Assembly (NCBI GenBank): GCA_044351865.1
Contig: JBILEY010000002.1
Location: 1-51,328 of the forward strand
Direction of reading: 5' to 3'
Length of the DNA: 51,328 nt
Source of the DNA: Planctomycetota bacterium
GTDB lineage: Bacteria > Planctomycetota > UBA1135 > UBA2386
Shown here: piece by piece, positions 10,669 through 50,974 of the stretch
Position numbering within the stretch: the first letter of the stretch is position 1
Layout of the letters: each line of letters opens with the position of its first letter
The notes under the pieces: generated by a model
What the model was told of the DNA's origin: nothing
Databases searched by the model: none
The model's input: only the letters and a program-made list of their open reading frames with translations
Position numbers and translations under genes: made by a program

Positions 10669-12152
10669 GCTCGCCGCGGCTGCTGGTCCGCGGACTGCAG
10701 AAGCGCTTCGGGCCGACGCAGGCACTCGCCGGCGTCGACTTCGCCGTGCAGCCGGGCGAGATCCACGCGCTGGTCGGCGAGAACGGTGCTGGCAAATCGA
10801 CGCTGCTGAAGGTGCTCGGTGGCGTGCACGCGCCCGACGACGGCGAAGTGCGGCTCGATGGCCAGCCGTTCGCGCCGCGCGATCCGGCGGCAGCCCGCGC
10901 GGCCGGCGTGGCGGTGATCCACCAGGAGCTGGCGCTGGCGCCGCACCTCACCGTCGCCGAGAACCTGTTCCTCGGCCGCGAGCCGCGCCGCGGGCCGTTC
11001 GTCGATCGCGCGGCGATGCGCACGCTGGCGCGCGAAGCGCTCGCGCGCGTCGGCCGCGCCGAACTGCCGCCCGATCGACTGGTCGGTGCGCTGCCGCCGG
11101 CGGATCGCCAGCTGGTCGAGATCGCGCGCGCGTTGGCGCAGCATGCGAAGCTGCTGATCCTCGACGAGCCGACGTCGAGCCTCGGCGATGCCGACGTGCC
11201 GCCGCTGCTCGCGCGCCTGCGCGAAGTCGCCGCCGCCGGCACCGCGGTCGTCTACGTGTCGCACGTGTTCGCCGAGCTGTTCGCGGTGGCGAGCCGCTAC
11301 ACGGTGCTGCGCGACGGCCGTTCGGTCGGCGGCGGGGCGATGGCCGACGTCACCACGGCGCAGCTGGTCGCGGCGATGGTCGGGCGCGAGGTCGCACCGC
11401 CGACCGCGCGCGTGCGGCGCCCCGGCGACGTCGTGCTGTCGTTGGACGCGGTGGCGGGCGCGAACCTGCCGCGCGCGGCGACGCTGCAGCTGCACGCCGG
11501 CGAAGTGCTCGGCCTCGCTGGTCTCGTCGGGGCGGGGCGCACCGAACTGCTGCGCGCGGTGTTCGGCCTCGATCCGGTGGTGCGCGGCAGCGTGCGCGTC
11601 GCCGGCTCTCTCGGGCTCGCGACGCCGGCGCGGCGTTGGGCGCAACGCGTCGGCATGGTCAGCGAGGACCGCAAGGGCGAAGGCGTGATGCTCGCGCGTT
11701 CGCTGGCGGAGAACGTGCTGTTGCCGGTGCTGTCGCGACACGCGATCGCCGGGGTGCTGCCGCCGTCGCGTGTCGTCACCGCGGCCGAACCCTTCCTGCG
11801 GCGGCTCGCGGTGCGCTGCGCGTCACCGCGCCAGGCCGCCGGCGAACTGTCCGGCGGCAACCAGCAGAAGCTGACGCTGGCGCGCCTGTTCGCCGCCGAT
11901 TGCGACGTGCTGTTGCTCGACGAGCCGACGCGCGGCATCGACGTCGGTGCGCGCGCCGACATCTACGCGGCCATCGCCGAGCGGGCGCAGCAGGGTGCCG
12001 CCGTGCTGGTGGCGTCGAGCCAGCTGCCCGAGTTGCTGCAGCTGTGCGATCGCATCGCCGTGGTGCGCTGTGGCGTCGTGCTGCCGCCGCGGCCGGTGCA
12101 CGAACTCGACGAGACCCGCCTGCTGGCCGCGATGACCGGAGCCTTCGCATGA
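10665..12152 (+). CDS. Sugar ABC transporter ATP-binding protein (two fused ABC cassettes)
   Basis: In-frame ATG at 10665 inside track ORF 8640..12152; ATGA overlap with the binding-protein stop. Walker A GENGAGKST. Signature-like LSGGNQQK. Walker B LLILDEPT and LLLDEPT. Confidence 0.9.
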   Translation: MSSPRLLVRGLQKRFGPTQALAGVDFAVQPGEIHALVGENGAGKSTLLKVLGGVHAPDDGEVRLDGQPFAPRDPAAARAAGVAVIHQELALAPHLTVAENLFLGREPRRGPFVDRAAMRTLAREALARVGRAELPPDRLVGALPPADRQLVEIARALAQHAKLLILDEPTSSLGDADVPPLLARLREVAAAGTAVVYVSHVFAELFAVASRYTVLRDGRSVGGGAMADVTTAQLVAAMVGREVAPPTARVRRPGDVVLSLDAVAGANLPRAATLQLHAGEVLGLAGLVGAGRTELLRAVFGLDPVVRGSVRVAGSLGLATPARRWAQRVGMVSEDRKGEGVMLARSLAENVLLPVLSRHAIAGVLPPSRVVTAAEPFLRRLAVRCASPRQAAGELSGGNQQKLTLARLFAADCDVLLLDEPTRGIDVGARADIYAAIAERAQQGAAVLVASSQLPELLQLCDRIAVVRCGVVLPPRPVHELDETRLLAAMTGAFA

Positions 12153-16524: not shown

Positions 16525-17891
16525 ACTCGTTCCTCGACGGCTTCGTCGCCTGGCTGCTGACGTTCGCGCTGCATTCGACGTGCGCGCTCGGGGGTGCGCT
16601 GCTGCTGACGCTGCTGCTGCGCCGTCGTGCGCTGGGCGCGCAGGAAGCGGCGCTGCGCTGGTCGCTGTGGGCCGCACTGCTGAGTGCGACGCTGCAGGTC
16701 GCGGTGCTCGGTTCGCCGTGGTCGGTCGGCGACCTCGGTCGTGACGTTCCCGCTCCCGTGCCAGCGGCGACGCCGTCCCCGGCCCCGGAGCCGCTGCAGG
16801 TCATGGTCGCGACCGCGCCGCCGGCATCGGCCCCGATCGTCGTCGACGCGGTCGAGGAAGGACTCGACTGGCGCAGCCTGCTCGGTGCGTGTGCGCTGCT
16901 CGCCGCCGGTGGTGGCCTGGTCTGGTTGTGGTGCGTGCAGTCGCGCTTGCGCACGCTGCTGGCGGCGCGACGGCCGGAGACCGATCCGCGCGTGCTGACG
17001 CTGGCGGCGCGCGCCGCCCGCGGGCTCGGCCTGCAGCAGTCCCCGCACCTGAGCCGCTGCCCACGCATCGCCACACCGATCGCGTTCGGCTGGCTGCGGC
17101 CCGAGGTCTGCCTGCCCGAGCGCGTCGACGATCTCGACGATGCGTCGCTGCGCGCGATGCTGGCGCACGAACTGGCGCACCTGCGTCGCTGCGATCCGGC
17201 GTGGATGTGGGGTGGTGCGGTGCTGCAGGCGCTGTTCCCCTGGCAGCCGCTGCTGCTGGTCGTGCGCCGCCGTTGGGCCCAGCTGGTCGAACTGCAGTGC
17301 GACGCGGTCGCCGCGCACCACGCCGGTCCGACCGCCGTCGCGCGTTGCCTGCTCGACGTCGCCGAATGGCTGCGTCCGGACACGCAGCAGCCGCTCGGCG
17401 CGCTCGGCATGGCGGCGCGGCCGTCGGCGTTGCGCGTGCGCGTCGAGACGGCGCTGCGCGGCGATGCGTGCGCCGAGCCGGATGCGCGCCGAGTGCACCT
17501 CGCCGGTGGCCTCGCCGTCGGTTTGCTGGTGTTCGCGGCCCCAGGGCTCGCGACCGTGCCGGCCGGCGACGAGCCGCTGCCCGTCGTCGATCGCTTCGAC
17601 GCGCCGGCGACCGAGAGCGTCGAAGACCGCTTCGCGGCGCCGCCCCCGGCTACAGGCGCGGACGTGTCGCCGGTGGTGCAGCTGCTGGCGGAACTGACCG
17701 CCGAACAGCGCGAGCTGCAGCAGGAGGCCGCCGACCTGCAGGCCTCGCTCGCGCTCGCCCCCGAACCCGAACTGCGCGACCTGCAGACGCTCCTGGTGGA
17801 GCGTCTGCGCCGTCTGGAGACGCAGCGGCAGCGCCTGAGCGCGCTGCTGGCCGCGCGTGCGAAGGAATCCCGAGCCAACGAAACCAGGTAG
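16521..17891 (+). CDS. M56-family (BlaR1-like) membrane zinc metalloprotease lacking a penicillin-binding sensor domain; coiled-coil C-terminus
   Basis: In-frame ATG 16521 inside track ORF 16185..17891; ATGA overlap with the repressor stop. N-terminal TM helices. HEXXH motif HELAHLRRCD. C-terminal heptad-like QLLAELTAEQRELQQEAADLQ...LRRLETQRQRLSALL. Confidence 0.85.
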   Translation: MNSFLDGFVAWLLTFALHSTCALGGALLLTLLLRRRALGAQEAALRWSLWAALLSATLQVAVLGSPWSVGDLGRDVPAPVPAATPSPAPEPLQVMVATAPPASAPIVVDAVEEGLDWRSLLGACALLAAGGGLVWLWCVQSRLRTLLAARRPETDPRVLTLAARAARGLGLQQSPHLSRCPRIATPIAFGWLRPEVCLPERVDDLDDASLRAMLAHELAHLRRCDPAWMWGGAVLQALFPWQPLLLVVRRRWAQLVELQCDAVAAHHAGPTAVARCLLDVAEWLRPDTQQPLGALGMAARPSALRVRVETALRGDACAEPDARRVHLAGGLAVGLLVFAAPGLATVPAGDEPLPVVDRFDAPATESVEDRFAAPPPATGADVSPVVQLLAELTAEQRELQQEAADLQASLALAPEPELRDLQTLLVERLRRLETQRQRLSALLAARAKESRANETR

Positions 17892-17905
17892 TCCCGAGGA
17901 GAACC

Positions 17906-19843
17906 ATGACCCCATCGATCCTGATCCGTGTCGCCACCGCCCTGATGGTCGGTGCGACGTTCCTGCCGGCGCAGTCGAAGCCGTCTGCCCAAGGTGGCGG
18001 CCCCGCCAAGGCGCGGGCCGAAGCCCAGAGCGCCGAGGACAAGGCTCAGGTCCGCCTGGCCGAGGTCATGGCGATGCTGCAGGACGAGGCGCTGACGCCA
18101 GCGCAGCGCGCCGAGGCGACGAAGAAGCTCGAAGAGGTCATGGCCGCGCTCGCCAGCGAGAAGATGGCGACGGCCAAGGCCGGTCAGGAGCCGAAGGTCG
18201 TGCGCAAGGTCGAGCGCAAGCTCGGCAAGAACGGCGAGGTCGTCGAGGAGACGGTGACCTCGAGCAGCAGCAGCTCGAACGCCACTCGCGACTCGCAGTC
18301 GTCGAGCTCCAGTTCGAGTGACAAGCAGTCGTCCAGCGACAAGAAGTCGGCGAGCGACGAGAAGTCGGCCAAGTCCGCAGACGGCAAGTCGTGGAAGGCC
18401 GGCAGCAAGGCCGAAGCCGACGACGGTGGGGGCAAGGCCGAAGGCGGCGAAGACAAGCCGCGGCGGCTGCGGATGCGCTGGTCGGGCGCTGCGCCCGCGA
18501 GCGAACCGCAGGAACCGGCGCCGGCGACGGCGCCAGAGGCCAAGAAGCCGCCGAAGGCGCCGCGTGCGCCGAAGGCTCCGAAGGCGGCTGTCGCGCCCGC
18601 GGAACCCGCCGAGCCGGTCGAGGTTCGCGTGGTCGAGTTGGCGCCTGGGCAGTTCCACGTAGTGCACGGGGAAGGCGGCGAGCCGCTGCTGCTGAGCACC
18701 GAACCCGGCGAGGTCGTCGAGCTGCCGCAGCTGGTGGAGCTGCGGGCCGAGTTCGAGAAGCTGACACCGCGGATCCTGGAGCAGGTGCGCGTGGCGCTGC
18801 CCGAGGGTCTCGGTGAGGGCTCGGAAGCGCTCCGCATCGCTCGCCTCGAGCTGGAGAAGGTGCGCGGCCAGCTGGGCACCGAGATGCACGAAGCGATGGA
18901 GGGGGCGCGCGAAGAGCTGGAGCTCGCGCGCGTCGAGCAGGGCGAAGCGAGGAAGCAGGCTCGGGTCGAGATGCTGCGCTACCGCGACAGCTTGCAGCGG
19001 CACGAAGACGGCAAGCGCGCCCACGCCGGAGCGCTGCGTTCGCACGAACAAGCGAAGCGCGCGCACGACGAAGCGCTGCGAGTGCACGACGAAGCGAAGC
19101 GCGCCCACGACGAGGCGCTGCGAGTGCACGACGAAGCGAAGCGCGCGCACGACGAAGCGCTGCGCAGCCACGAAGAGGCGGCGCGTGCGCACGCCGAGGC
19201 GATGGCTGCGGAGCGCGCGGTGCAGGACGAAGCGCGTGGTCCGCGCGGCCGGCGGGTGGTCGTCGATCGCGCCAGGGGCCAGCGCGGCGTCGCGGATCGC
19301 CAGTCCGACGATCGCCAGTCGGTCGAGCGCGTCTACGAAGTGCGCACGCGCAGCGTCGAAGGCCAGGACGACGAGATCCGCCGCCTGATCGACGAGATGC
19401 GCGGCGAGATGCAGGAGATCCGTTCGCTGATGCAGGAACTGCGCGAACGCGCCGACCAAGCACACGAGCGTCGCACCGGCCGCGCTGGGCGTTCGGGCAA
19501 CAGCCTGCTCGGTGGCCAGCGGCCGTCCGGCTCGTTCCCGGCGTCGGCGGAAGGTCGCGCCGTCGGCACCAGTCCGTTCGGTGCGACGTCGCAGCCCACC
19601 TGGCTGGCGCCGGCCGCGCCGGGCAGCACCTTCGGCTCGCAGCCGGTTCCGGGCCTGCCGCCGGCCCCGCCCGCTCCGCCGGTGCCGGGCGACGCCGGCG
19701 TCGGCGCGCTGTCGCCGCTCGAGACGCGCGGCGTGCCGGTGCTGCAGGGCCTGCCGGTGCTCGGCAACCTGTTCACGACGCGCACGGCTCCCGCTCCGGC
19801 CTCGACGCTGCCGCCCGTCCAGACGCAGCCGCTCGGTCGCTGA
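17906..19843 (+). CDS. Secreted low-complexity/coiled-coil protein with a His-heptad array and a secretin-like C-terminal motif
   Basis: In-frame ATG 17906 inside track ORF 16889..19843, preceded by GAGGAG. Signal-like MTPSILIRVATALMVGATFLPAQS. Ser-rich tract, KAPRAPKAPK tract, long charged helices, then a Pro/Gly-rich tail. Confidence 0.7.
   Translation: MTPSILIRVATALMVGATFLPAQSKPSAQGGGPAKARAEAQSAEDKAQVRLAEVMAMLQDEALTPAQRAEATKKLEEVMAALASEKMATAKAGQEPKVVRKVERKLGKNGEVVEETVTSSSSSSNATRDSQSSSSSSSDKQSSSDKKSASDEKSAKSADGKSWKAGSKAEADDGGGKAEGGEDKPRRLRMRWSGAAPASEPQEPAPATAPEAKKPPKAPRAPKAPKAAVAPAEPAEPVEVRVVELAPGQFHVVHGEGGEPLLLSTEPGEVVELPQLVELRAEFEKLTPRILEQVRVALPEGLGEGSEALRIARLELEKVRGQLGTEMHEAMEGAREELELARVEQGEARKQARVEMLRYRDSLQRHEDGKRAHAGALRSHEQAKRAHDEALRVHDEAKRAHDEALRVHDEAKRAHDEALRSHEEAARAHAEAMAAERAVQDEARGPRGRRVVVDRARGQRGVADRQSDDRQSVERVYEVRTRSVEGQDDEIRRLIDEMRGEMQEIRSLMQELRERADQAHERRTGRAGRSGNSLLGGQRPSGSFPASAEGRAVGTSPFGATSQPTWLAPAAPGSTFGSQPVPGLPPAPPAPPVPGDAGVGALSPLETRGVPVLQGLPVLGNLFTTRTAPAPASTLPPVQTQPLGR
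19001..19210 (+). repeat. Ten consecutive 21-bp (7-aa) units, each beginning with a His codon, inside the CDS
   Basis: Units: HEDGKRA, HAGALRS, HEQAKRA, HDEALRV, HDEAKRA, HDEALRV, HDEAKRA, HDEALRS, HEEAARA, HAEAMAA. The central units form near-identical 42-bp DNA repeats (19064..19147). Confidence 0.85.
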
Positions 19844-38998: not shown

Positions 38999-40285
38999 AT
39001 GCGCTGCCAAGGCACGCTGCCGTCGCTGCTGCTGCTCGCGTGCGCAATGTCGTCCGTCGCCTCCTGCCGCACGCGAACCCGCGCGGTGCCGCTCGAGCAG
39101 CAGCTGCAGGCGGTGGCGCTGGCGCTGCGTGACGGTCGGCTCGAAGGGGCCACCGAACTGCTCGCGGCGGCGCGTGCGCGGCACGGCAACCAGGCGGCGG
39201 TGGCGACGTGGAGTTCGGTGCTCGCCGAGCTCCTGTGGCGCGACGACGACGCGGTGCGCGAGATGCATGCGGCCGTGCGAGCCGCGGTTGCCGCCGGTGC
39301 TTCGGCGGCGGAGGTGGCGGAACTGCGCGGCCGCCTCGGCGACCTGTTGTTCCAGGCCGGGCGCTGGGGCGAAGCGTGGACCGCACTGACAGCCGACCCC
39401 GGGGTGTCGCCGCAGCGCGCCGCGTTCGCGACCGTCGCCGCCGAGCTGCCGAGCGTGCGCCAGCCGCGCGGCCCGCTGCTGACCGAGCAGCCGCTGCTGC
39501 CGGGCGACACCCCGGAGTTCGTCTGCGGTGCCGGCGGCCGTCAACGCCCGTTCGCGATCGACACCGGTACGTCGATGACGACGCTGGGCCGTTCGTTCGC
39601 CGAGGAACTGGCGGTCGCGCATCGCGTCGCCGCCGGCGAAGCGCTCGACAGCGGCGGGCGCAAGCTGCCGATCGAGGTCGGCGTGCTGCCGCAGTTCCAG
39701 ATCGGCGACGTCGACATGGGGGCGACGCCGGTGCTCGTCGTCGACGATGCGGCGTTGCGCCTGCGCGACCTGTTCGGCGGCGCCGAGCGCGTGCCGCGCG
39801 GTGTGCTCGGGCTCGACCTGCTGGCGGCGATGCGGCTGTCGATCGACCCGGAGCGCAGAAGCGTCACGCTCGAGCTGCCGCGCGGTCTGCCGGCGGACCA
39901 GTCGGTGCAGTGTGTGCGCGTCGACGGCCGCTGTCTGGCGCCGGTGACGATCGAAGGCGTGCGCTTCTGGTTCGTGCTCGACACCGGCGCCAGCCACTCG
40001 AGCCTCAGCGACACCGGCCTCGCGCGCCTGCCGGACGGCGACGCGCGCGCCGTGCCGACCTACCGCCGCGTGCGGACCGTCGGCGGCGGCACGGTGGCCG
40101 TGCGCGAAGTGCGCGGCCTGGTGCTGCGCTGCAGCGAGGCGCGCTTCGCCGGCGTGACGCTGCCGGTGGTGCCGCGCGGCCAGGGTGGCATGTTCCCGGT
40201 GCACGGTGTGCTCGGCATCGACCTGCTCGGCCGCTGTCGCCTGACGCTCGATCGTGGCCGGGCGCGCCTGATCGCGCCGTCGTGA
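38999..40285 (+). CDS. Retropepsin-like (clan AA) aspartyl protease with two DTG lobes and an N-terminal helical region; lipoprotein
   Basis: Track ORF, 428 aa. The ATG directly abuts the upstream TGA (38996..39001). Lipobox-like LLLLACA. Two catalytic-type motifs: FAIDTGTS and FVLDTGAS. Confidence 0.75.
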   Translation: MRCQGTLPSLLLLACAMSSVASCRTRTRAVPLEQQLQAVALALRDGRLEGATELLAAARARHGNQAAVATWSSVLAELLWRDDDAVREMHAAVRAAVAAGASAAEVAELRGRLGDLLFQAGRWGEAWTALTADPGVSPQRAAFATVAAELPSVRQPRGPLLTEQPLLPGDTPEFVCGAGGRQRPFAIDTGTSMTTLGRSFAEELAVAHRVAAGEALDSGGRKLPIEVGVLPQFQIGDVDMGATPVLVVDDAALRLRDLFGGAERVPRGVLGLDLLAAMRLSIDPERRSVTLELPRGLPADQSVQCVRVDGRCLAPVTIEGVRFWFVLDTGASHSSLSDTGLARLPDGDARAVPTYRRVRTVGGGTVAVREVRGLVLRCSEARFAGVTLPVVPRGQGGMFPVHGVLGIDLLGRCRLTLDRGRARLIAPS

Positions 40286-40309: not shown

Positions 40310-41380
40310 GTGGCCGGGCTCGGCGCTACAACCAGGCGGATGGAGGACCTCGCCTCGCTGCTCGATTCGCTCGACGTGGGCGTCGCCGACGTCGTGGCCG
40401 ACGGTGTCCTCGGCGATCGTGTGCGGCCGCGCAATGGCCCGATGCGCGCCGTGCTGCGTGCGCTGGCGGCCCCGGTCGGTGGCGAGGTGCATGTGGGTGA
40501 CGAGGTGCCGTTCGCGAGCCTCGGCCTCGATGCCGACGAACGCGCGCAGCTCGAACGCGGCGACGCGATCGCCGTCGCGAGCGGTACGAACGTCTGGTCG
40601 CTGCGGCGCCGCGGCCGCTGGTTGCTCGCGAGCGACGTCACCGCGCTGCGTCACACCGAGAGCCTGGTGCTCGCCAGCGCGCGCGCGGGGGCGCTGGCCC
40701 GCGTCGCCGGCACGTTCGTGCACGACCTCAACAACCACCTGAACCTCGGCCTCGCGCTGTTCGGCCAGTTGCGCACGCTGACGCCGGACGAGTCGGAGCG
40801 GCAGCTGTGCGATGCGCTGGCCGGCGGGGCGCAGCTCGCCGCGCAGCTGGCGCGAACGCTTGCGCGGCTGCTGCAGCGCGACGCCGGCGCCTGCGAGGTG
40901 GTCGCCGCCGGGCCGGCGATGGGCGAGGCGCTCGCGTCGATCGCGAAGCTGTGTGCGCAGCGCGAGATCGCCGTGGCGAGCCGCATCGACGTCGCCGTGT
41001 GCGTGCGCGCGAGCCAGGCCGAGCTCGCGGGCCTCTACGTGCAGCTGCTGCTGGCGCTGGCCGAGCTGCGGCCGCGCCGCTTGCAGGTGATGCTCGCTCG
41101 CGAAGTGCTGCCGATCGCCGGCGGGCGGCCGCGGCCGTGTGCACGCACCGTGGTGACGATGCACGGACTCGCAGCCGAAGCGCGTCGCACGCTGGCGGCG
41201 GCCGCGCTGTCGCCAGCGGGCTCCTTGCGCGATCTGGTGGTCGCCGGACACCACGGCCAGACACTGCCGCAGGTGGTGCTGCTCGCGTTCCGGCTCGGTG
41301 GCGAGTTCCTGGTCGCCGACGTCGGCGACGCGGTCGAGGTCACGTGCTCGCTGCCGGCGGTGGCGACTTCTCGAGCGTAG
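40310..41380 (+). CDS. Soluble histidine-kinase-like protein with an intact H-box and a degenerate ATP-binding domain
   Basis: Track ORF (GTG 40310; alternative ATG 40340, MEDLASLL). H-box GTFVHDLNNHLN. The region where N, G1 and G2 boxes are expected (LLLALAELRP, TMHGLAAEA, HHGQTLPQV) lacks the conserved Asn/Asp/Gly residues. Confidence 0.6.
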   Translation: MAGLGATTRRMEDLASLLDSLDVGVADVVADGVLGDRVRPRNGPMRAVLRALAAPVGGEVHVGDEVPFASLGLDADERAQLERGDAIAVASGTNVWSLRRRGRWLLASDVTALRHTESLVLASARAGALARVAGTFVHDLNNHLNLGLALFGQLRTLTPDESERQLCDALAGGAQLAAQLARTLARLLQRDAGACEVVAAGPAMGEALASIAKLCAQREIAVASRIDVAVCVRASQAELAGLYVQLLLALAELRPRRLQVMLAREVLPIAGGRPRPCARTVVTMHGLAAEARRTLAAAALSPAGSLRDLVVAGHHGQTLPQVVLLAFRLGGEFLVADVGDAVEVTCSLPAVATSRA

Positions 41381-43367
41381 CCAGATCGGTCGCCGCGGCG
41401 ACGCCGTGTTGCAGCGCGCGCTGGCGCGCGGCGTCGAACTCGTGGCCGCCGAAGCGAACGTCCTGGTAGGCGGTGAACGCCGCGGCGATCGCGGGTTCGA
41501 GCACCTGCTCGCGGCGCAGCGTGCGCGCGAACGCTTCGAGCGTCTGGCCACGATGGCGCGGATGCCCGGCCGCGGCGAGCTGCTTCAGCAGTTGGGCGAG
41601 CAGGCGGCGCGCGCGGCGGATCGGCGTGGCGAGGGCCTGGGACGGTGCGTCGGTGCCTCTGCGGCGCAGCGGTCGAAGTGCCAGCAACAGGGTCAGCACC
41701 AGGACGATCGCCGGCAGGTACGGACGCGACAGCTGTTCGCGCAGGCCGTCGAGCCAGATCTGGATCGACGAGCGTTCCGGCGGCGCCGCTGCGGGTTCGC
41801 TGTCGTCGCGCGCCGGCATCGGGTTGCCGCGTTCGCTCGGCGGCGTCGGATCGAAGACGACGTAGCCGAGTCCGTCGAACGGCACCTCGACCCACGCGTG
41901 CGCGTGTTGCGAACCGTAGGTGCGCACGCCGGGCTCGGTGCTCGACGGCTGGCCGCCGTGCAGGCCGACACCGAGGCGGCACGGAACGCCGCGCAGGCGC
42001 AGCAGCAACGCCGCCGCGGAGGCGAAGTGCATGCAGTAGCCGCGGTGCTCGCCGTCGGCGAACAAGAAGTTCTCGACCTCGTAGGCGAACGGCCCGGACG
42101 GTTCGGTCAGGCGGTCGTAGCGGCAGTGGCGCGAGAGTCCGGCGGCGATCGCCTCCATCGCCGCGAACGGGTCCTCGGGCACGTTCCACTCGGCGAGCAG
42201 CCGATCCCAGCGTTCGCGCTCGAGCGCGCGCGGCAACGACAGCAGGCCGAGTTCGCGCGCGTCGTAGGCCAGCGGCGCGCCACGGCCGAGCACCGGCAGT
42301 GGTTGGCAGCGCAGCTCGTACGGCTCGGGACTGGTCGCGTCGGTCGGCCGCAGCCAAAGTCGATTCGGGTCGATCGCCAGCCCGTCGAGGCCGTGCACCG
42401 ACAGCGTGTGCGGCGTCACGAACACGAAGTTGTGGCCGCCGGCGAAGCGTTCGACCAGCAAGCGCGTCGTCGGCAGGCCTGGCTGTGGCTCGCGCAGCTC
42501 GACGTCGCCGCTGGCCAGCTGCGGCAGCAGCTCGACGTTGCCGTGCTGCCACTTGTCCATGCCTGGACGCGCGAAGAAGCCGGAGCGCAGGTAGAGGTCG
42601 GGCGGAACGTTGGCGCCATCGAGGTCGCGCACGCGCGCGAGCAGCTCGCCGCCGAGGCCGGCGAGTGCGCCGCCGCCGTCGAGCACGAAGCTGTCGTCGA
42701 GCCCCGGCGAACGGCGAGCTGCGGTGTCGTCGGGCTTCGCCTTGCTCGTCGCGAAGCTGGCCGGCGATGGCAGCCAGCCGAGCGTGCGATCGACGGCGAG
42801 GGCGGCACACAAGCCGCCGAGCAGCATCGAGCCGAGCGCCGCCAAGGCGCCGTGGCGCAGCGGCACGCGCGCACGCGCGGTCACGACGGCCCCCACGGTC
42901 CGCAGGCTCAGGTGGCTCTGCGCGCGCAACGCGCAGCACGCGGCGATCGCCCAGGCGGCGATCCACGGCATCTGCTGGCCGGCCAGGATCGCGCCGACCA
43001 GCAGCATGCAGAACGACAGGAACAGCGCGAGCGAACGGTCGGCGTCGTTGCCGCGCGCGGTGGCGAAACCGAGCGGCGGCAGGATCGTGCACGCCAGCGC
43101 CGCCGGTTGGGTCACCGGCCCTTCCAGCTGCAGCGCCAGCGCACAGGTCGACACCTGCAGCGCGATCGCCAGCAGCGTGCGCCACCACGGCGAGCGCGCG
43201 AGGCCCGGAAGCAGCCCGAGCACGACGCCGGGCAGCAGGAACGCGAAACGCCAGGTCGGTGGCACCATCGTCGCTGGCAGCGCGGCGATGGCGATCGCCG
43301 CACAGGCGGCGGTGGTCAGCCACGCGAGGCGCACGGCCAGCGGCGGCGTGGGGTGCTTGCCGTTCAT
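41340..43367 (-). CDS. Membrane transglutaminase-domain protein (TgpA-like)
   Basis: Track ORF, 675 aa. N-terminal multi-TM region. Transglutaminase core triad context: GYCMHFASA (Cys), HAWVEV (His), VVFDPT (Asp). One more TM helix and a helical tail. Confidence 0.85.
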   Translation of the reverse strand: MNGKHPTPPLAVRLAWLTTAACAAIAIAALPATMVPPTWRFAFLLPGVVLGLLPGLARSPWWRTLLAIALQVSTCALALQLEGPVTQPAALACTILPPLGFATARGNDADRSLALFLSFCMLLVGAILAGQQMPWIAAWAIAACCALRAQSHLSLRTVGAVVTARARVPLRHGALAALGSMLLGGLCAALAVDRTLGWLPSPASFATSKAKPDDTAARRSPGLDDSFVLDGGGALAGLGGELLARVRDLDGANVPPDLYLRSGFFARPGMDKWQHGNVELLPQLASGDVELREPQPGLPTTRLLVERFAGGHNFVFVTPHTLSVHGLDGLAIDPNRLWLRPTDATSPEPYELRCQPLPVLGRGAPLAYDARELGLLSLPRALERERWDRLLAEWNVPEDPFAAMEAIAAGLSRHCRYDRLTEPSGPFAYEVENFLFADGEHRGYCMHFASAAALLLRLRGVPCRLGVGLHGGQPSSTEPGVRTYGSQHAHAWVEVPFDGLGYVVFDPTPPSERGNPMPARDDSEPAAAPPERSSIQIWLDGLREQLSRPYLPAIVLVLTLLLALRPLRRRGTDAPSQALATPIRRARRLLAQLLKQLAAAGHPRHRGQTLEAFARTLRREQVLEPAIAAAFTAYQDVRFGGHEFDAARQRALQHGVAAATDLATLEKSPPPAAST

Positions 43368-44443
43368 TCGAAGTCGCCCCCGACCAGCGTGACTTCGCCC
43401 GGCATCGCCGCGAACTCGGGGGCCGCCAGGTACGAGCCGGCGGGGATCCAGTAGCAGTGCTCGAGGTGGCGCAGCGCGTCGAACTGCGCCGCCGGCACCG
43501 GCCGGTGCGCCGTCGGCCCCGCTTCGGCCAGCAGCGTCAGCAGTTCGAGTTCTTGCGCGGGCCCGCGCACCAGCAGGTCAGCGTGCTCTTCGGCGAGCAC
43601 CAGGACGCGGGCGGCGGCGCCGTGCTGGCGCAGCGTGTGCAGCAGCGACGCGCAGGCGCCGAGGCTCCATTCGAAGCGGCGCAGCCCCTGGTTCAGCGGC
43701 CGGCGCGGCGGGCGGCGCAGGTCGAGCACGATGCCGACCAGCTGCGGCACGCGGCCCTGCGTGACGCGACGCACCAGCGTGCCCAGCGCCGCGCTGCGCA
43801 GCGCGTGCACGAGCCGCGCGTCCTCCTCGGGCAGGTGTTCGCGCAGCGAGTGGAACTCCGGGCCCGGCAGCTGCGAACGGTCCTGCGGCGCCTGTTCGTG
43901 GGTTGCGATCGCGCGCACGAGGTCGGCACGCAGCGGCACGCGCGCGGGCTCGGTCACCAGGTCGGCGGCGATGCGCACCGCCGCGCGCGTGCGCAACAGG
44001 CCGAGTGGCCACTGCGACACCAGTTCGAACGCGCGCTCCAGCTGGTGGCTGCGCTGGTGGCTGCGCTGCCGCACCTCGACGCGCACGGGCTCGCCCGGCG
44101 GCAGGCTCGGCAGCAGCGCCGGCGCTTCCAGGCGCATCGTGCGCGGTTCGCGCAGCAGCACCTCGCGCAGCGGGCGGTTGCCGTGGTGCACCAGCGTCAG
44201 CGTCTCGGTGAACGGCGCGCCGGCGACGCAGCGGCGCGCTTGCACGCGCACCTCGGTCGCGTGCAGCCGGCGTTGGCGCAGCACGAGGTCGACCAGCAGC
44301 GGGGCGGTGAGCAGGGCCGCGGCGAGGCGTGCGTTCGGATCGTCGCCGAGCCACGCGGCGCCGGCGGCCAACGCGGCGAGCCACGCCACGACGCGGCCGC
44401 GCATGGTCAGTTCGAGCGTCGTGGTCTGCGGCTCCGTCGGCAT
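43364..44443 (-). CDS. DUF58-family protein (MoxR-associated, vWA-like)
   Basis: Real part of track ORF 43364..44518 from Met (cat 44441..44443); alternative Met at 44404. The block EFHSLREHLPEEDARLVHALRSAALG resembles the DUF58 signature (ReY-pGDd-r-IhW). Its stop overlaps the transglutaminase start (ATGA at 43364..43367). Confidence 0.7.
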   Translation of the reverse strand: MPTEPQTTTLELTMRGRVVAWLAALAAGAAWLGDDPNARLAAALLTAPLLVDLVLRQRRLHATEVRVQARRCVAGAPFTETLTLVHHGNRPLREVLLREPRTMRLEAPALLPSLPPGEPVRVEVRQRSHQRSHQLERAFELVSQWPLGLLRTRAAVRIAADLVTEPARVPLRADLVRAIATHEQAPQDRSQLPGPEFHSLREHLPEEDARLVHALRSAALGTLVRRVTQGRVPQLVGIVLDLRRPPRRPLNQGLRRFEWSLGACASLLHTLRQHGAAARVLVLAEEHADLLVRGPAQELELLTLLAEAGPTAHRPVPAAQFDALRHLEHCYWIPAGSYLAAPEFAAMPGEVTLVGGDFE

Positions 44444-44456
44444 CGCGGCGCTTCGC

Positions 44457-45368
44457 TCAATCGGGCATCGGGGTCGCGGCCAGCACTTCGTGCAGCAACG
44501 CGTCGGCGTGCGCACCACTGCGCGTGGCGATGCGGTGCGCCCAGGTCGGCAACAGCAGCGAACGCACGTCGTCGGGCACCACGTAGTCGCGGCCGTGCAC
44601 GAACGCGCGTGCGCGGCAGGCGCGATGCAGCGCCTGCGCCCCGCGCGTGCTGACGCCCTGCACGGCGTCGGTCGCCGAACGCGTGGCGCCGGCGAGGGCC
44701 ACCATGAACGCGACCAGTTCGCGGTCGCAGCGCACGGCGTCGACCGCGGCGCGCGCTGCCAGCAGGTGCTCGCGGCTCGCCACGGGCTTCAGGTCTTCGG
44801 CGAGCCGATGGCCGTCTTCGCGGGCGACGACGTCGATCTCGTGCTCGGCGTCGAGGTAGCCGATGCGCAGGCACAGCAGGAAGCGGTCGAGCTGGTTCTC
44901 CGGCAGCGGATACGTTCCCGCCGACGTCGACGGGTTCTGCGTCGCGATCACGAAGAACGGATCCGGCAGCGGGTGCGACGTGCGATCGACGGTGACGCGC
45001 CGTTCGGCCATGCACTCGAGCAGCGCCGACTGCGTGCGCGGCGGCGTGCGGTTCAGTTCGTCGGCCAGCAGCACCGACGTGAACACCGGGCCTTGCCGGA
45101 ACGTCAGCTCGCCGGTCTTCGGCTGGTAGACCTGGGCGCCGACGATGTCGGTCGGCAGCAGGTCGGCCGTGCACTGGATGCGCTGGAAGGGCAGGTCGAG
45201 CGCCTTTGCCAGGCTCTTCGCCAGCAGCGTCTTGCCGACGCCGGGCTGGTCCTCGATCAGCACGTGGCCACCGGCGAACAAGGCGATCAAGGCGAGCTCG
45301 ATCGCTTCCTCCTTGCCGCGCAGGCTCTGGCCGATGGCGTCGAGAAGCAGGCTGGCGAGTGGGGTCAT
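44457..45368 (-). CDS. MoxR-family AAA+ ATPase
   Basis: Real part of track ORF 44457..45551 from Met62 (cat 45366..45368); alternative Met at 45395. Walker A EDQPGVGKT. Walker B VLLADELNR. ATQNP sensor block. Confidence 0.9.
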   Translation of the reverse strand: MTPLASLLLDAIGQSLRGKEEAIELALIALFAGGHVLIEDQPGVGKTLLAKSLAKALDLPFQRIQCTADLLPTDIVGAQVYQPKTGELTFRQGPVFTSVLLADELNRTPPRTQSALLECMAERRVTVDRTSHPLPDPFFVIATQNPSTSAGTYPLPENQLDRFLLCLRIGYLDAEHEIDVVAREDGHRLAEDLKPVASREHLLAARAAVDAVRCDRELVAFMVALAGATRSATDAVQGVSTRGAQALHRACRARAFVHGRDYVVPDDVRSLLLPTWAHRIATRSGAHADALLHEVLAATPMPD

Positions 45369-45516
45369 CCGTTCGGCGCGTGGGACGGCGCGCATGCTAC
45401 CTCGGGGGTGCTCGGGATGGACTGTGGGGTGGCGGCTGCAACGTGACTCGACCAGGGGCGGTTCACCGCCGCTCCAGCCTTCCCTCGCGCCCCGGGGCCC
45501 GGCTACCCTCGGCCGG

Positions 45517-46749
45517 GTGAGCAAGCAAGTCGTCGCATCGTTCCAAGCCAAGGGGCACTTGATCGACTCGGGTCTGCTGTCGGACGCGCTCGAGGCGGTC
45601 CAGGCCGCCGGCGCCGCCTACCGCGTCGTGCGCCTCGACATCGGCAAGCAGCGCCACGACGAGAGCCAACTCGAGCTCGAGGTGCAGGCGCCGAACAAGA
45701 AGGTGTTCGACCGCGTGCGCGCCGACCTGATGTCGCTCGGCCTCAGCGAGACCGAGACGCAGGACGCGACGTTCGCCGAGGTCGACATCGAAGGCACGGC
45801 ACCGGAGGGCTTCTACTCGACGACCAACCTCGCCACCGAAGTCCGGGTCGGCGGGCAGTGGCTGCCGGTCCAGAACCAGCGCATGGACGCGACCGTCGTC
45901 GACGACAACGGCACGCTGCGCTGCGTCAAGCTGCGCGACCTGAAGAAGGGGCAGAAGCTCGTCGTCGGCTTCTCCGGCGTGCGCGTCACGCCGTTCACGA
46001 CGCGCAAGCTGCAGGAGGGCAAGTTCGGCTTCATGCAGGGCGGCGTCAGCAGCGAGCGTCGCCTGGAAGCGCAGGTCGAGGACGTCGTGCGCGAATGGAA
46101 GCGCGTGCGCGCCGAGGGCCGCAAGGTCATCGTCGTCGCCGGCCCGGTCGTCGTGCACGTTGGCGCTGCCCCCACCCTCGCAGCGATCCTGAAGGCCGGC
46201 CTGATCGACGGCCTGCTGAGCGGCAACGCGCTCGCCGTGCACGACATCGAGGTCGCGCTCTACGGCACCAGCCTCGGCGTCGAGCTGCAGCACGGCCGCC
46301 CGGCGGTGCACGGCCACATGCACCACATGCGTGCGATCAACACGATCCGCCGCTGCGGCAGCATCCAGAACGCGGTGCAGAAGAAGGTGCTGAAGAACGG
46401 CGTCATGCACGCGGCGGTGCAGGCGAAGGTGCCGTTCTGCCTCGCCGGCTCGATCCGCGACGACGGCCCGCTGCCGGACACCGTCATGGACCTGATCGAG
46501 GCGCAGGCCGGCTACGCGAAGATCCTCGAAGGTGCCGGTCTCGTGGTGATCCTGAGCTCGATGCTGCACGGCATCGGCACCGGCAACATGATCGCCGCCG
46601 ACGTGCTGACCGTCTGCGTCGACATCCACCCGGCGGTCGTCAGCAAGCTCGCCGACCGCGGCTCGGCGCAGAGCCAGGGCATCGTCACCGACGTCGGCGC
46701 GTTCCTCAGCGTGTTGGCGCAGCAGCTCGGGGTGACGGTCAAGGGCTGA
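45517..46749 (+). CDS. LOR/SDH conserved-region (TIGR00300-type) protein; possible ornithine cyclodeaminase-like enzyme
   Basis: Real part of track ORF 45145..46749 with a GTG start at 45517 (MSKQVVASFQAKGHLIDSGLL). The opening GHLIDSG block and overall length (~410 aa) match my memory of this family. Confidence 0.7.
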   Translation: MSKQVVASFQAKGHLIDSGLLSDALEAVQAAGAAYRVVRLDIGKQRHDESQLELEVQAPNKKVFDRVRADLMSLGLSETETQDATFAEVDIEGTAPEGFYSTTNLATEVRVGGQWLPVQNQRMDATVVDDNGTLRCVKLRDLKKGQKLVVGFSGVRVTPFTTRKLQEGKFGFMQGGVSSERRLEAQVEDVVREWKRVRAEGRKVIVVAGPVVVHVGAAPTLAAILKAGLIDGLLSGNALAVHDIEVALYGTSLGVELQHGRPAVHGHMHHMRAINTIRRCGSIQNAVQKKVLKNGVMHAAVQAKVPFCLAGSIRDDGPLPDTVMDLIEAQAGYAKILEGAGLVVILSSMLHGIGTGNMIAADVLTVCVDIHPAVVSKLADRGSAQSQGIVTDVGAFLSVLAQQLGVTVKG

Positions 46750-49329: not shown

Positions 49330-50466
49330 ATGGGATCCCTGCTGTCGGTCGCCCTCTCGTCCCTGCTCGTCGCCGCAGTCGTCGCGCAGGCCCCAGCGCC
49401 GACGGTTGCGCCGAGCCCGGCGAATCCCAACCCGATCCCGGCGCGCAAGCAGCCGAAGCTGCCGCCGCGCGAGGTCGTGCTGTGCGGTGCCCGCGACGGC
49501 GCCCCGCCCGGCGAGTTCGGCCTCGGCGACGGCGGTGTCGCGCTCGAGCGCGGCGAACTCGTCTTCACCGAACACGGCGTTCGCACGCCGGGCGGTGTCG
49601 ACGTCGATGTGCGCTCGGTCGGCGTCAAACTGACGTTCCCTTCGGGGCGCGAACTGCTGGTCGCACCCGACGGCCACGTGCACCTGCGCACCGGCGAGAT
49701 CGGCGGCCCGTTCGCCGGCGGCGTCGAACTGCGCCTCGCCGACGGCGCGCTGGTGCGCATCGTGCTCGTGCCCGGCGCCGACCTGCGCCTGCGCGACGTG
49801 TTCGTCGTGCACGGCGAACGCGCGCTGCAGCCGTGGCGCCGCGGCGCGCCGGCGACCAACACGCAGCGGCCTGGCGGCTGGCCGGGCTTGCACGTGTCGT
49901 GCTGTGGCGACGGTGGCGAACTCTACCGAACGGTCGCGCTCGGTCCGCTGCTCGTGCTCGATCGTGTGCTGGTGCCGCAGGCGCGCGAGGACGCGGCGCC
50001 GAAGGAGCGCCTCGTCGTGCTGACGCAACCGCTGCTCGAGTCGCTGACGCGCATGCCGCGCCAGCATCGCGAACCCGACGCGCCGGTCCGCCAGGCGGTC
50101 GCCGCGGTGACGGCGGTCGCCGACAAGGGCGAGCTGATCTTCCCGGCCGGAGCGGCGCTGCGCCGCGTCGAGCGCGAGCAGTTGCGCTGGCGGCTCGAAG
50201 GCGGCTTCGAGCTCCAGCTCGACCTCGACGGCCCGATGGCGCCGCGCCTGCAGTTGTTCACCGGCCGCGCGCCGGTGGCGATGGTCGAATGGACGCTGCG
50301 CGGCGATGGGGCGGCGTTCCTCGCCAATCCGCGCGACGAGCAGGTCGGCAAGCGCTGGCATGGCAACGGCACGCGCCTTGGCCGTGTCGTCACCGACCTG
50401 CAGGCCAACGAGGAGTTGTTCGAACGGCCCTACGCGCTGCAGGTGATCGAGCGCTTCGCGCACTGA
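49330..50466 (+). CDS. Secreted protein of unknown function
   Basis: Real part of track ORF 49210..50466 from ATG 49330, preceded by TAGGAG at 49317..49322. Signal peptide MGSLLSVALSSLLVAAVVAQA. Confidence 0.65.
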   Translation: MGSLLSVALSSLLVAAVVAQAPAPTVAPSPANPNPIPARKQPKLPPREVVLCGARDGAPPGEFGLGDGGVALERGELVFTEHGVRTPGGVDVDVRSVGVKLTFPSGRELLVAPDGHVHLRTGEIGGPFAGGVELRLADGALVRIVLVPGADLRLRDVFVVHGERALQPWRRGAPATNTQRPGGWPGLHVSCCGDGGELYRTVALGPLLVLDRVLVPQAREDAAPKERLVVLTQPLLESLTRMPRQHREPDAPVRQAVAAVTAVADKGELIFPAGAALRRVEREQLRWRLEGGFELQLDLDGPMAPRLQLFTGRAPVAMVEWTLRGDGAAFLANPRDEQVGKRWHGNGTRLGRVVTDLQANEELFERPYALQVIERFAH

Positions 50467-50521: not shown

Positions 50522-50974
50522 ATGCGCCTGCTCGTCGCTCTCGCCGCGTTCGTGATCCTGCTCGTCGCCGGTGTCGTCGGCTTCGTGATCCACAAGGAAT
50601 CGCAGCGATCGCACACCGGTGGCCGCGCGTCGAACGGTGCGCCGGCGGTGTCGGTCACCATGGAACCGGTGGCGACGCTGACCGTCGGCGACGCGATCGA
50701 CGTCGACGCCAGCGTGCCGCAGCAGGGCTACGTGATCGTGGCGTTCGGCGCGGTCTTTTGAGGCGCGTGCGCCCAACTCGAGCCTCAGTTGGAGGCTCTG
50801 ACCAGGAAGCGTCCGGACGTGCGCCTGCGCCGCATCGACATCGAGTCGTGGGATTCGCCGGTGGCGAAGCTCTACGGCGTGCGCAGCCTGCCGCTGCTGT
50901 GGCTGTATCGCGACGGTGAGGTGGTCGCACGCGGTACGCGCGACGTCGTCGACGAACTGAACGCGCTGCGCTGA
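50522..50974 (+). CDS. Membrane-anchored thioredoxin-fold protein with an in-frame TGA at the first position of the redox motif (U-G-A-C): candidate selenoprotein, alternatively a pseudogene
   Basis: Track ORFs 50522..50761 and 50789..50974 share one frame and are separated only by TGA 50759..50761. Joined translation: ...GYVIVAFGAVF[TGA]GACAQLEPQLEAL...RIDIESWDSPVAKLYGVRSLPLLWLYRDGEVV. This matches the thioredoxin pattern (strand, F-x-A-x-W-C-G-P-C, helix, ..., cis-Pro strand). N-terminal TM helix MRLLVALAAFVILLVAGVVGFVI. Confidence 0.55.
50773..50792 (+). promoter_or_regulatory. Candidate bacterial SECIS hairpin
   Basis: CCAACT (50773..50778) pairs with AGTTGG (50787..50792) around the 8-nt loop CGAGCCTC. 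The stem starts 12 nt after the TGA, and the loop has a G at its second position. Confidence 0.35.

What the first reader, a model, noticed from the sequence alone, without database searches (positions are those of the whole stretch)
50522..50974. Candidate selenoprotein: thioredoxin-fold gene with TGA at the first Cys of CxxC, plus a downstream hairpin
Seen in sequence:
- Two adjacent track ORFs are in the same frame and are split by a single TGA (50759..50761). There are no other stops over the next 27 nt.
- Read through, the product is a 150-residue N-terminally anchored protein. Its residues around the TGA, VIVAFGAVF-[TGA]-GAC-AQLEPQLEAL, align position for position with the thioredoxin active-site region (vlVdFwAxW-C-GPC-kxlxPxleel).
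- The C-terminal half has the expected V(R)SLP cis-Pro strand and the G-E-V strand.
- The TGA therefore sits exactly at the nucleophilic Cys, giving U-x-x-C.
- A 6-bp hairpin (50773..50792, 8-nt loop with G at loop position 2) begins 12 nt after the TGA.
- The downstream ORF alone would need a TTG start with no RBS.

Established knowledge: many bacterial selenoproteins are thioredoxin-fold proteins with UxxC, and the bacterial SECIS lies immediately 3' of the UGA.

Inference: this is Sec recoding rather than a nonsense mutation (TGC/TGT to TGA is a single step).
Basis: partly seen in the sequence, partly recalled or inferred. Interest (0 to 1): 0.8.

Follow-up and report, generated by a model that had tools for sequence, protein, structure and literature searches.

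The report
Membrane-anchored thioredoxin-like selenoprotein gene
This is one intact gene for a membrane-anchored thioredoxin-like enzyme whose internal "stop" codon almost certainly encodes selenocysteine, directed by a conserved RNA hairpin just after it; it belongs to a widespread family that gene callers routinely cut in two.

Summary
Window 50522-50974 (+) is one 150-codon frame with a single TGA (50759-61). It aligns with the first Cys of the thioredoxin CxxC, giving U-G-A-C.

- The same TGA occurs in five independent assemblies of the same clade. Downstream dN/dS is about 0.21 (p=3e-4 against neutral).
- An exhaustive search found a broad family. Of the 150 best representatives, 102 are full-length forms with W-C-x-x-C. 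Another 38 are ~60-aa fragments starting just after the active site.
- All 8 fragments examined at DNA level sit behind an in-frame TGA (never TAA or TAG) at that column.
- All Sec forms share one hairpin in the same register, at window 50780-50798. It has a 7-bp stem and a loop AGUUG or AGGUC starting 25 nt after the UGA. It meets all four published bacterial SECIS criteria and has two compensatory pairs.
- In the window the hairpin is built from three rare codons. It is absent from two Cys-form controls.

Not testable here: selA/B/C/D in this genome, and selenium incorporation. No curated selenoprotein model matches. I file it as a new member, perhaps a new subfamily, of the known UxxC thioredoxin-fold selenoproteins.

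The parts
50522..50974 (+). Complete selenoprotein gene: 150 codons (79 + Sec + 70) plus the terminating TGA
   Evidence: Single frame with one internal TGA. GC3 is 0.85-0.86 on both sides of the TGA. Pfam Thioredoxin scores 44.3 bits when read through.
50528..50590 (+). N-terminal hydrophobic segment (about residues 3-23, LLVALAAFVILLVAGVVGFVI): signal-anchor or export signal
   Evidence: The most hydrophobic 15-residue window of the first 45 residues has mean Kyte-Doolittle 3.1. 24 of 35 single-domain Cys-form homologues also have an N-terminal hydrophobic stretch. P0023 has a lipobox-like LTVGC. Topology is inferred, not shown.
50711..50929 (+). Thioredoxin-fold domain (residues 64-136)
   Evidence: PF00085 match to residues 64-136. 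Alignments to PDB thioredoxins and PDIs.
50759..50761 (+). In-frame TGA = predicted selenocysteine codon (U80), at the nucleophilic first position of U-G-A-C
   Evidence: Aligns with the first Cys of CGHC/CGPC and with Cys in the family's full-length forms, for example the W-C-x-x-C of P0004, P0013, P0016, P0017 and P0020. TGA is at the same column in 5 close and 8 divergent homologues.
50768..50770 (+). TGC = resolving Cys (C83) of the UxxC motif
   Evidence: Sequence reads tga ggc gcg tgc. TG at alignment columns 10-11 is invariant in all 10 sequences, as TGC or TGT.
50780..50798 (+). Bacterial SECIS hairpin: 7-bp stem GAGCCUC/GAGGCUC and 5-nt apical loop AGUUG (50787-50791). The loop begins 25 nt after the UGA.
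   Evidence: -11.4 kcal/mol. Invariant in 5 close relatives. Same register in all 9 lineages. It is the only RNAalifold consensus helix. 92.9% of cells paired with 2 compensatory pairs, against 31-64% and 0 in slid controls. Absent in Cys-form controls.
50891..50893 (+). Codon of the conserved cis-Pro (P124, in V-R-S-L-P)
   Evidence: Aligned with the Pro of GVRGYPTL / GVSGYPTL in PDI and thioredoxin structures. Conserved as S-[IL]-P or L-P across the family.
50972..50974 (+). True terminator, also TGA
   Evidence: Most confident genes in the window also end in TGA. TGA is therefore a stop in this genome, and the internal one needs local recoding.

Best explanation
Window 50522-50974 encodes a single 150-residue, N-terminally anchored thioredoxin-fold thiol:disulfide oxidoreductase with active site U-G-A-C. 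During translation the UGA at 50759-61 is read as selenocysteine. The hairpin 50780-50798, 18 nt downstream, acts as a bacterial SECIS. [quoted passage not shown] The identical codon at 50972-74, which has no such element, terminates. The selenolate then acts as the attacking nucleophile, and C83 resolves the selenenylsulfide.

Shown here: the in-frame TGA, the Sec/Cys pairing across a large family, purifying selection downstream, and a conserved, covarying hairpin specific to the TGA forms.

Inferred: SelB binding, selenium incorporation, the extracytoplasmic location of the domain, and the redox substrate.
For: 1. Thioredoxin domain spans the TGA. PF00085 scores 44.3 bits against a 23.5 cut-off, and the TGA aligns with the first Cys of CxxC.
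2. TGA is a genuine stop here. The gene itself and most confident genes in the window end in TGA.
3. Five independent assemblies carry the same TGA with the frame intact: window, L001, L005/6, L007 and L008. Codons 81-150 show 14 synonymous and 8 nonsynonymous changes, dN/dS about 0.21, p=2.9e-4 against neutrality.
4. Searching 1.84 billion representatives with the C-terminal 70 aa gave 343 hits. Of the top 150, 102 are Cys forms and 38 start just after the U column. Many of the Cys forms share the anchor-linker-domain build (24 of 35 single-domain ones).
5. 8 of 8 such fragments examined at DNA level are preceded by in-frame TGA, never TAA or TAG, at F/W-U-x-x-C.
6. SECIS. In every Sec form the hairpin loop starts 25 nt after the UGA and reads AGUUG or AGGUC. 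The window hairpin meets all four published bSECIS criteria from PMC13188914 Fig. 2: loop 3-9 nt on a 4-16 bp stem, G in the first two loop positions, 16-37 nt spacing, and energy at or below -7.5 kcal/mol. RNAalifold finds only this helix. 92.9% of cells are paired, with compensatory GC<->AU and GC<->UA changes. Slid registers give 31-64% paired and no compensatory changes.
7. The window hairpin uses three rare codons: CCT (5% of Pro), TTG (6.8% of Leu) and GCT (5.7% of Ala).
8. Negative controls. Cys forms L019 and L020 pair only 2/7 and 3/7 positions in that register and use CCC for Pro. The peptide x-P-Q-[LV]-E that encodes the hairpin occurs in 8/15 truncated forms against 10/102 Cys forms, p=2e-4.
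9. Several Planctomycetes are reported to have full Sec machinery (PMC4807772). L001 is a Planctomycetota MAG.
Against: - No selA, selB, selD or tRNA-Sec lies in the 51-kb window. The rest of the genome could not be searched, so Sec competence of this organism is unverified.
- No experimental evidence exists (75Se labelling, mass spectrometry).
- In isolation the hairpin is not statistically unusual: z = -1.0 for the 60-nt fold, and 7.6% of TGAs in the window have an equal or better one.
- Within the close clade, the depletion of synonymous changes after the TGA is only suggestive: 1 observed against 3.7 expected, P=0.12.
- Covariation rests on 3 cells in 2 pairs. Part of the hairpin's conservation is confounded with conservation of the peptide GPQ[LV]EA.
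- Several members have a mismatch or bulge in the outer stem: L011, L013, L014 and L017.
Confidence: 0.9

Rival explanations
1. Pseudogene. A TGC/TGT-to-TGA nonsense mutation inactivated a thioredoxin-like gene in the ancestor of this clade, and what remains is a decaying relic.
For: TGY to TGA is a single step. Gene callers split the gene into an 83-aa and a 51-aa ORF. Some family members have lost the CxxC altogether: P0043, P0143, P0091 and P0094.
Against: - Downstream codons are under purifying selection: dN/dS about 0.21, p=2.9e-4.
- There are no frameshifts or further stops in 5 assemblies.
- The same column is TGA in 8 of 8 divergent lineages, and never TAA or TAG. Independent nonsense decay would not produce that.
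- A hairpin specific to the TGA forms is conserved.
Confidence: 0.03
2. The UGA is recoded, but not as selenocysteine. Possibilities are hairpin-stimulated near-cognate read-through inserting Trp, Cys or Arg, or SelB delivering Cys-tRNA(Sec).
For: Sec machinery and selenium incorporation were not shown for this organism. A downstream structure can also stimulate generic read-through.
Against: - The codon sits exactly at the redox-active Cys column. Only Cys or Sec would give a functional active site there, and Cys forms use ordinary TGY.
- The hairpin matches the SelB-type bSECIS model in loop sequence, size and spacing.
- Sec/Cys pairing at CxxC in thioredoxin folds is the commonest class of bacterial selenoprotein (PMC13188914).
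Confidence: 0.05
3. Two real, separate genes: a small membrane protein (50522-50761) and a small soluble protein starting at TTG 50789 or a later GTG. Any thioredoxin resemblance would span them by descent only.
For: This is how automatic annotation calls it in relatives.
Against: - Neither half is a complete fold. The break falls inside the active-site motif.
- The codons between the TGA and any possible restart (G-A-C-A-Q-L-E-P-Q) are conserved as protein, including the resolving Cys.
- Fragment start points differ between lineages, 4 to 22 residues after the U column. They are caller artefacts, not a conserved start.
Confidence: 0.02

Closest known systems
Sec-containing thioredoxin (Trx, PF00085, UxxC), experimentally characterised in Treponema denticola and listed among verified prokaryotic selenoproteins (PMC13188914 table, ref. 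84; also 'Thioredoxin (Trx)' in the Sargasso Sea selenoproteome, PMC1088965)
   Same: Same Pfam domain. Sec is at the first position of UxxC, with the resolving Cys three residues on. The bacterial SECIS lies directly after the UGA, inside the coding sequence.
   Different: - This protein has an N-terminal hydrophobic anchor and a ~40-residue linker.
- Its dipeptide is G-A (P-A, P-G, N-A or P-S in relatives) rather than G-P.
- F replaces the usual W before the active site.
- It scores far below NCBI's thioredoxin equivalog cut-off: TIGR01068 42.3 bits against 96.8.
- It has its own family signature, LR(K/R)IDI..W.SPVA.Q. It is not an orthologue of TrxA.
Predicted UxxC thioredoxin-fold selenoproteins: Prx-like thiol:disulfide oxidoreductase (PF00578), thiol:disulfide interchange protein (PF13098), Redoxin family (PF08534), DsbA-like, SaoT (NF040730), HUIPC-motif Trx-like (NF047660) (PMC13188914)
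   Same: Same logic: thioredoxin fold, Sec replacing the nucleophilic Cys, Cys-form homologues, prediction by bioinformatics. Several are exported or membrane-associated.
   Different: The best Pfam match is PF00085, not those domains. Thioredoxin_2 scores 20 bits against 27, and Redoxin 12.2 against 26.6. None of the NCBIfam selenoprotein-specific models hits even at E<=1.
E. coli fdhF/fdnG-type bacterial SECIS and the general bSECIS consensus model (bSECISearch)
   Same: A stem-loop inside the ORF just 3' of the UGA. The apical loop carries G then U/G at positions 2-3. Loop spacing is 25 nt, within the 16-37 nt range. Energy is below -7.5 kcal/mol.
   Different: The sequence is unrelated to fdhF. 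The stem is a short perfect 7 bp in the window, with no conserved bulged U (only L014 has one). The element is tied to the peptide G/E-P-Q-[L/V]-E-A. No Rfam family matches.
Membrane-anchored periplasmic thioredoxin-like reductases (TlpA / ResA / CcmG-DsbE)
   Same: The architecture is an N-terminal anchor followed by an extracytoplasmic CxxC thioredoxin-fold domain. This is a resemblance from general knowledge only.
   Different: Those proteins belong to the AhpC-TSA/Redoxin branch, with an extra insertion. Here Redoxin scores only 12.2 bits. No cytochrome-maturation or copper-chaperone neighbours were seen.

Membership tests
Bacterial selenoprotein gene (Sec-decoding UGA) | In-frame TGA aligned with Cys in homologues (Sec/Cys pair) | tested here: met
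   Of the top 150 representatives, 102 carry C-x-x-C at or next to the projected TGA column. The sequences inspected read W-C-x-x-C there. PDB thioredoxins align Cys there too.
Bacterial selenoprotein gene (Sec-decoding UGA) | TGA-containing homologues in other organisms, with conserved sequence on both flanks | tested here: met
   4 further assemblies of the close clade and 8 divergent lineages have TGA at the identical column, with conserved flanks. The stop is always TGA.
Bacterial selenoprotein gene (Sec-decoding UGA) | Downstream region is translated (purifying selection in frame) | tested here: met
   Codons 81-150 have dN/dS about 0.21, p=2.9e-4. GC3 is 0.86.
Bacterial selenoprotein gene (Sec-decoding UGA) | bSECIS immediately 3' of the UGA meeting the consensus: loop 3-9 nt, stem 4-16 bp, G in loop positions 1-2, 16-37 nt spacing, energy <= -7.5 kcal/mol | tested here: met
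   Window 50780-50798 has a 5-nt loop AGUUG, a 7-bp stem, 25-nt spacing and -11.4 kcal/mol. It is conserved with 2 compensatory pairs and absent in Cys forms.
Bacterial selenoprotein gene (Sec-decoding UGA) | Genome encodes selA, selB, selD and tRNA-Sec (selC) | not testable with these tools
   None lies in the 51-kb window. The genome contigs and metagenome scans and the contig look-ups were exhausted. Some Planctomycetes are reported to have full sets (PMC4807772).
Bacterial selenoprotein gene (Sec-decoding UGA) | Selenium shown in the protein (75Se labelling or mass spectrometry) | not testable with these tools
   Uncultured metagenomic lineage; needs an experiment.
Thioredoxin domain family (Pfam PF00085) | Score above Pfam's gathering threshold | tested here: met
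   44.3 bits against 23.5, with Cys substituted for the TGA.
Thioredoxin domain family (Pfam PF00085) | CxxC (here UxxC) after strand beta2, and a conserved cis-Pro before beta4 | tested here: met
   Residue-by-residue alignments to TXNDC5 and PDIA3: F-[U]-GAC on W-C-GHC, and R-S-L-P on R-G-Y-P.
Canonical thioredoxin TrxA/TrxC (NCBIfam equivalogs TIGR01068, NF006898, NF008229) | Score above the equivalog cut-off | tested here: not met
   42.3 against 96.8, 30.6 against 138, and 30.9 against 125 bits. It is thioredoxin-like but not a TrxA orthologue.
Curated Trx-like selenoprotein families in NCBIfam (e.g. SaoT NF040730, HUIPC NF047660, VPGUxxT NF041383, Trx7/PDZ NF041199) | Any match to the family model | tested here: not met
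   No such model appears among hits at E<=1.
TlpA/ResA/DsbE-type Redoxin / AhpC-TSA | Match to Redoxin or AhpC-TSA models above threshold | tested here: not met
   Redoxin PF08534 scores 12.2 bits against 26.6. AhpC-TSA is not listed.

The most novel reading that the evidence does not exclude
This gene may represent a so-far uncurated, widespread family of anchored or exported thioredoxin-like proteins. Roughly a quarter of sequence clusters (38 of the 150 best representatives) would be selenoproteins. They carry a family-specific SECIS in fixed register, hard-wired into the peptide G-P-Q-[L/V]-E-A. Public protein databases systematically split them into two 'hypothetical' ORFs. Tandem two-domain versions (P0002, P0009) may combine a Sec domain and a Cys domain.
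Probability: 0.4. Interest if true: 0.45.

Novelty: new member of a known kind. Interest (0 to 1): 0.4.

Why it matters
- **Annotation.** In every assembly examined the gene is either called as two unrelated small ORFs (an 83-aa and a 51-aa 'hypothetical protein' in L005 and L006, and likewise in the divergent loci) or has not been annotated at all. At least 38 cluster representatives in a 1.84-billion-protein library are C-terminal stubs of the same family. Recognising the family would repair many annotations.
- **Biology.** It implies that this high-GC freshwater Planctomycetota clade uses selenocysteine. It also adds an anchored, probably extracytoplasmic, UxxC oxidoreductase to the selenoproteome.
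- **Methods.** The SECIS has a fixed register and an obvious Cys-form negative control. That makes it a clean model for how an RNA signal constrains codon choice and peptide sequence.

It does not change what is understood about Sec decoding. UxxC thioredoxin-fold selenoproteins are the commonest known class.

Tried and rejected
- Rfam at gathering threshold over the whole window gave no hit. A permissive scan of 50700-50900 gave only a chance S15-leader match, E=2. I found no bacterial SECIS family match.
- A tRNA scan of the window found nothing, so no tRNA-Sec.
- Pfam annotation of about 30 window ORFs found no SelA, SelB or SelD.
- The word-indexed protein search with the full read-through found only the N-terminal stub P0001. 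It was too insensitive to detect the family.
I therefore used the exact C-terminal 70 aa.
- An NCBIfam scan with 'U' in the sequence was rejected as not a protein.
- Single-sequence fold statistics for the hairpin were not significant: z=-1.0. Depletion of synonymous changes in the close clade gave P=0.12. Neither is used as primary evidence.
- Other in-frame TGA/TAG junctions between coding-looking ORFs (40283, 5087, 3746, 9682) are ordinary gene ends.
- The upstream neighbour (49330-50463) has no Pfam or PDB match.
- L002-L004, L009 and L010 are ordinary CGPC thioredoxins and are not informative.
- Two look-ups (one of two places for P0003, and P0012) returned no DNA because the sample files were too large.
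- Structure prediction was not attempted.

Full report
**1. The observation.**
Window 50522-50974 (+) is one reading frame from ATG to TGA, interrupted by a single TGA at 50759-61. Read through, it gives 150 residues:
- an N-terminal hydrophobic segment (residues about 3-23);
- a ~40-residue linker;
- a domain with the active-site context VIVAFGAVF-[TGA]-GAC-AQLEPQLEAL.

With Cys at the TGA the protein passes Pfam's Thioredoxin threshold (PF00085, 44.3 bits against 23.5, residues 64-136). Solved thioredoxins and PDIs align F-[TGA]-G-A-C onto W-C-G-H-C, and V-R-S-L-P-L-L-W-L-Y-R-D-G-E onto the cis-Pro strand and the following strand.

The window is about 72% G+C. GC3 is 0.85-0.86 on both sides of the TGA. 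The gene's own terminator and those of most confident genes in the window are also TGA. So TGA is a real stop codon in this organism, and the internal one would need local recoding.

The exception is the identity of the relevant hairpin (section 4).

**2. Not an error, not decay.**
A genome-collection scan, a metagenome scan and an exact-protein look-up recovered four further independent assemblies of the same clade, at 89-94% amino-acid identity:
- L001, a Planctomycetota MAG;
- L005/L006, from two Logan runs;
- L007, on a 139.6-kb ENA contig;
- L008, from a JGI metagenome.

All carry TGA at the same column with an intact frame to the same terminator.

Across the five sequences, codons 81-150 downstream of the TGA show 14 synonymous and 8 nonsynonymous changes. 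That gives dN/dS of about 0.21. A binomial test against the neutral expectation gives p=2.9e-4. The C-terminal half is therefore translated in this frame and is under selection. This excludes sequencing error and a decaying pseudogene.

**3. A large family with Sec/Cys pairs.**
The word-indexed protein search found only the N-terminal stub P0001. An exhaustive HMMER search of 1.84 billion representatives with the exact C-terminal 70 residues gave 343 hits at E<=1e-3. The top 150 fall into three groups:
- **102 Cys forms.** The full-length examples inspected are 128-196 aa and carry F-x-A-x-W-C-x-x-C. Many share the same build of N-terminal hydrophobic segment, linker and domain (24 of 35 single-domain forms).
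- **38 short proteins** of about 50-68 aa whose first residue lies 1-22 residues after the active-site column.
- **10 others.** Some of these have lost the CxxC.

I fetched DNA for eight of the short ones (L011-L018). In all eight the ORF is preceded in frame by TGA, never TAA or TAG, at exactly the F/W-[U]-x-x-C column. Conserved family sequence lies upstream.

These are the field's standard criteria for a predicted selenoprotein, as stated in PMC1088965 and PMC12013277: an in-frame TGA, Cys-containing homologues, TGA-containing homologues elsewhere, and conserved flanks.

**4. The SECIS.**
The proteins align without gaps for at least 20 codons after the TGA, so the RNAs can be compared column by column (alignment A4).
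- Every Sec form has a hairpin in the same register. The core stem is CCUC/GAGG, extended outward by GG(G)/(C)CC. The 5-nt loop reads AGUUG or AGGUC and begins exactly 25 nt after the UGA.
- In the window this is GAGCCUC-AGUUG-GAGGCUC at 50780-50798, -11.4 kcal/mol.
- It satisfies all four constraints of the published bacterial SECIS model (PMC13188914 Fig. 2). These are a 3-9 nt loop on a 4-16 bp stem, G within the first two loop positions (here the typical N-G-[G/U]-N-N), 16-37 nt spacing, and energy at or below -7.5 kcal/mol.
- RNAalifold returns this helix as the only consensus structure.
- 92.9% of pair cells are standard pairs. Two pairs show compensatory double changes: G-C to A-U in the window clade, and G-C to U-A in L015. 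With the 3' arm slid by 1-3 columns, only 31-64% of cells pair and none is compensatory. The covariation score is 0.162 against 0.082 for shuffles, reached by 3 of 500.

Three controls support selection at the RNA level.
- **Rare codons.** The window hairpin is built from CCT (5% of Pro codons in the window's genes), TTG (6.8% of Leu) and GCT (5.7% of Ala).
- **Cys forms lack it.** L019 and L020, at 69-72% G+C, pair only 2/7 and 3/7 positions in that register. They use CCC for the Pro and have no hairpin meeting the criteria.
- **The encoding peptide is Sec-specific.** x-P-Q-[LV]-E, which encodes the hairpin, occurs in 8/15 truncated forms but only 10/102 Cys forms (Fisher p=2e-4).

It is only -5.2 kcal/mol. 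Across the family it pairs 65% of cells, which is indistinguishable from shuffles, 226/500.

A caveat applies to the window sequence taken alone. The 60-nt fold has z=-1.0. 7.6% of all TGAs in the window are followed by an equal or better hairpin. The case rests on the comparative data.

**5. How it most likely works.**
SelB carrying Sec-tRNA(Sec) binds the apical loop of the 50780-50798 hairpin as the ribosome reaches UGA-80. It inserts selenocysteine in competition with RF2. The terminal UGA lacks such an element and terminates translation.

The product is a thioredoxin-fold oxidoreductase with U80 as the nucleophile and C83 as the resolving residue.

Three things suggest the catalytic domain faces the periplasm, although the topology is inferred, not shown:
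- the N-terminal Arg or Lys followed by a hydrophobic segment;
- similar segments in 24 of 35 single-domain homologues;
- a lipobox-like LTVGC in P0023.

No conserved operon partner was found. Neighbours differ between lineages.

**6. Comparison with what is known.**
UxxC thioredoxin-fold proteins are the commonest class of bacterial selenoprotein. A Sec-thioredoxin (PF00085) has been characterised experimentally (PMC13188914).

This protein is in PF00085. It is far below NCBI's equivalog cut-offs for TrxA and TrxC. It matches none of the curated selenoprotein-specific NCBIfam models, even at E<=1.

Public sources call the Cys forms 'thiol-disulfide isomerase/thioredoxin' and call a Sec-form stub 'hypothetical protein'.

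Some Planctomycetes are documented to have full Sec machinery (PMC4807772). I did not find this family described in the papers I read, but the search was not exhaustive. Pfam-based surveys may already lump it under 'Trx' or 'Trx-like'.

**7. What remains open.**
Whether this genome encodes selA, selB, selC and selD could not be tested. No experimental evidence exists.

**8. Verdict.**
It is a selenoprotein gene (confidence about 0.9) with a well-defined SECIS at 50780-50798. It is a new member, possibly the founding description of a subfamily, of a well-known kind. It has moderate interest: it is valuable for annotation and as a clean SECIS example, but it would not surprise a specialist.

Noticed in passing
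L008:1559-1981 (Ga0169931_10045546): This close relative has a 30-nt in-frame deletion that removes 10 residues of the N-terminal hydrophobic anchor. It also has F79S right next to the TGA. The TGA, the SECIS and the downstream frame are kept.
   Followed up: partly
window 50758-50776: A second small hairpin encloses the UGA itself (UUG-A-GGCG / CGUG / CGCC-CAA) in the MFE fold. The corresponding columns vary across the family, so it is probably fortuitous.
   Followed up: partly
P0002 (196 aa) and P0009 (206 aa): These are tandem two-domain family members. Their first domain begins right after the active-site column, and their second domain has W-C-H-A-C (P0002) or a degenerate W-C-S-E-S (P0009). 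They may be Sec-plus-Cys double-domain proteins cut by the gene caller. Their DNA was not fetched.
   Followed up: no
P0043, P0143, P0091, P0094: These full-length family members have lost the CxxC/UxxC motif altogether (for example FLSTAMPSP and WSEKG). They suggest redox-inactive derivatives of the family.
   Followed up: no
L018:277-1176 and window 38999-40282: An Asp_protease_2 (PF13650) gene lies directly upstream of the Sec-thioredoxin gene in L018. A gene with the same domain lies about 10 kb upstream in the window. This may be coincidence or remnant synteny.
   Followed up: no
window 49330-50463 (+): The upstream neighbour is 378 aa with a signal-peptide-like N-terminus. It ends 55 nt before the selenoprotein start. 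It has no Pfam and no PDB match and is conserved next to the gene in L005. It could be co-transcribed. Its function is unknown.
   Followed up: partly
window 40283, 5087, 3746 (TGA) and 9682 (TAG): These are other places where two coding-looking (high-GC3) ORFs abut in the same frame across one stop. The translated contexts look like ordinary gene ends followed by intergenic sequence, with no Cys motif.
   Followed up: yes
window 41340-45614 (-): A gene cluster of MoxR-type AAA_3 ATPase (44457-45614), an ORF with no Pfam hit (43364-44785), and a transglutaminase-core/DUF4129 protein (41340-43574). PMC4807772 mentions a transglut_core gene beside a planctomycete Sec-insertion operon. No link was established here.
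   Followed up: no
window 1-1899 (-), 16889-19840 (+), 10293-11819 (-): Large high-GC3 ORFs of 508 to 984 aa have no Pfam match at E<=1e-5. These are uncharacterised proteins of this lineage.
   Followed up: no
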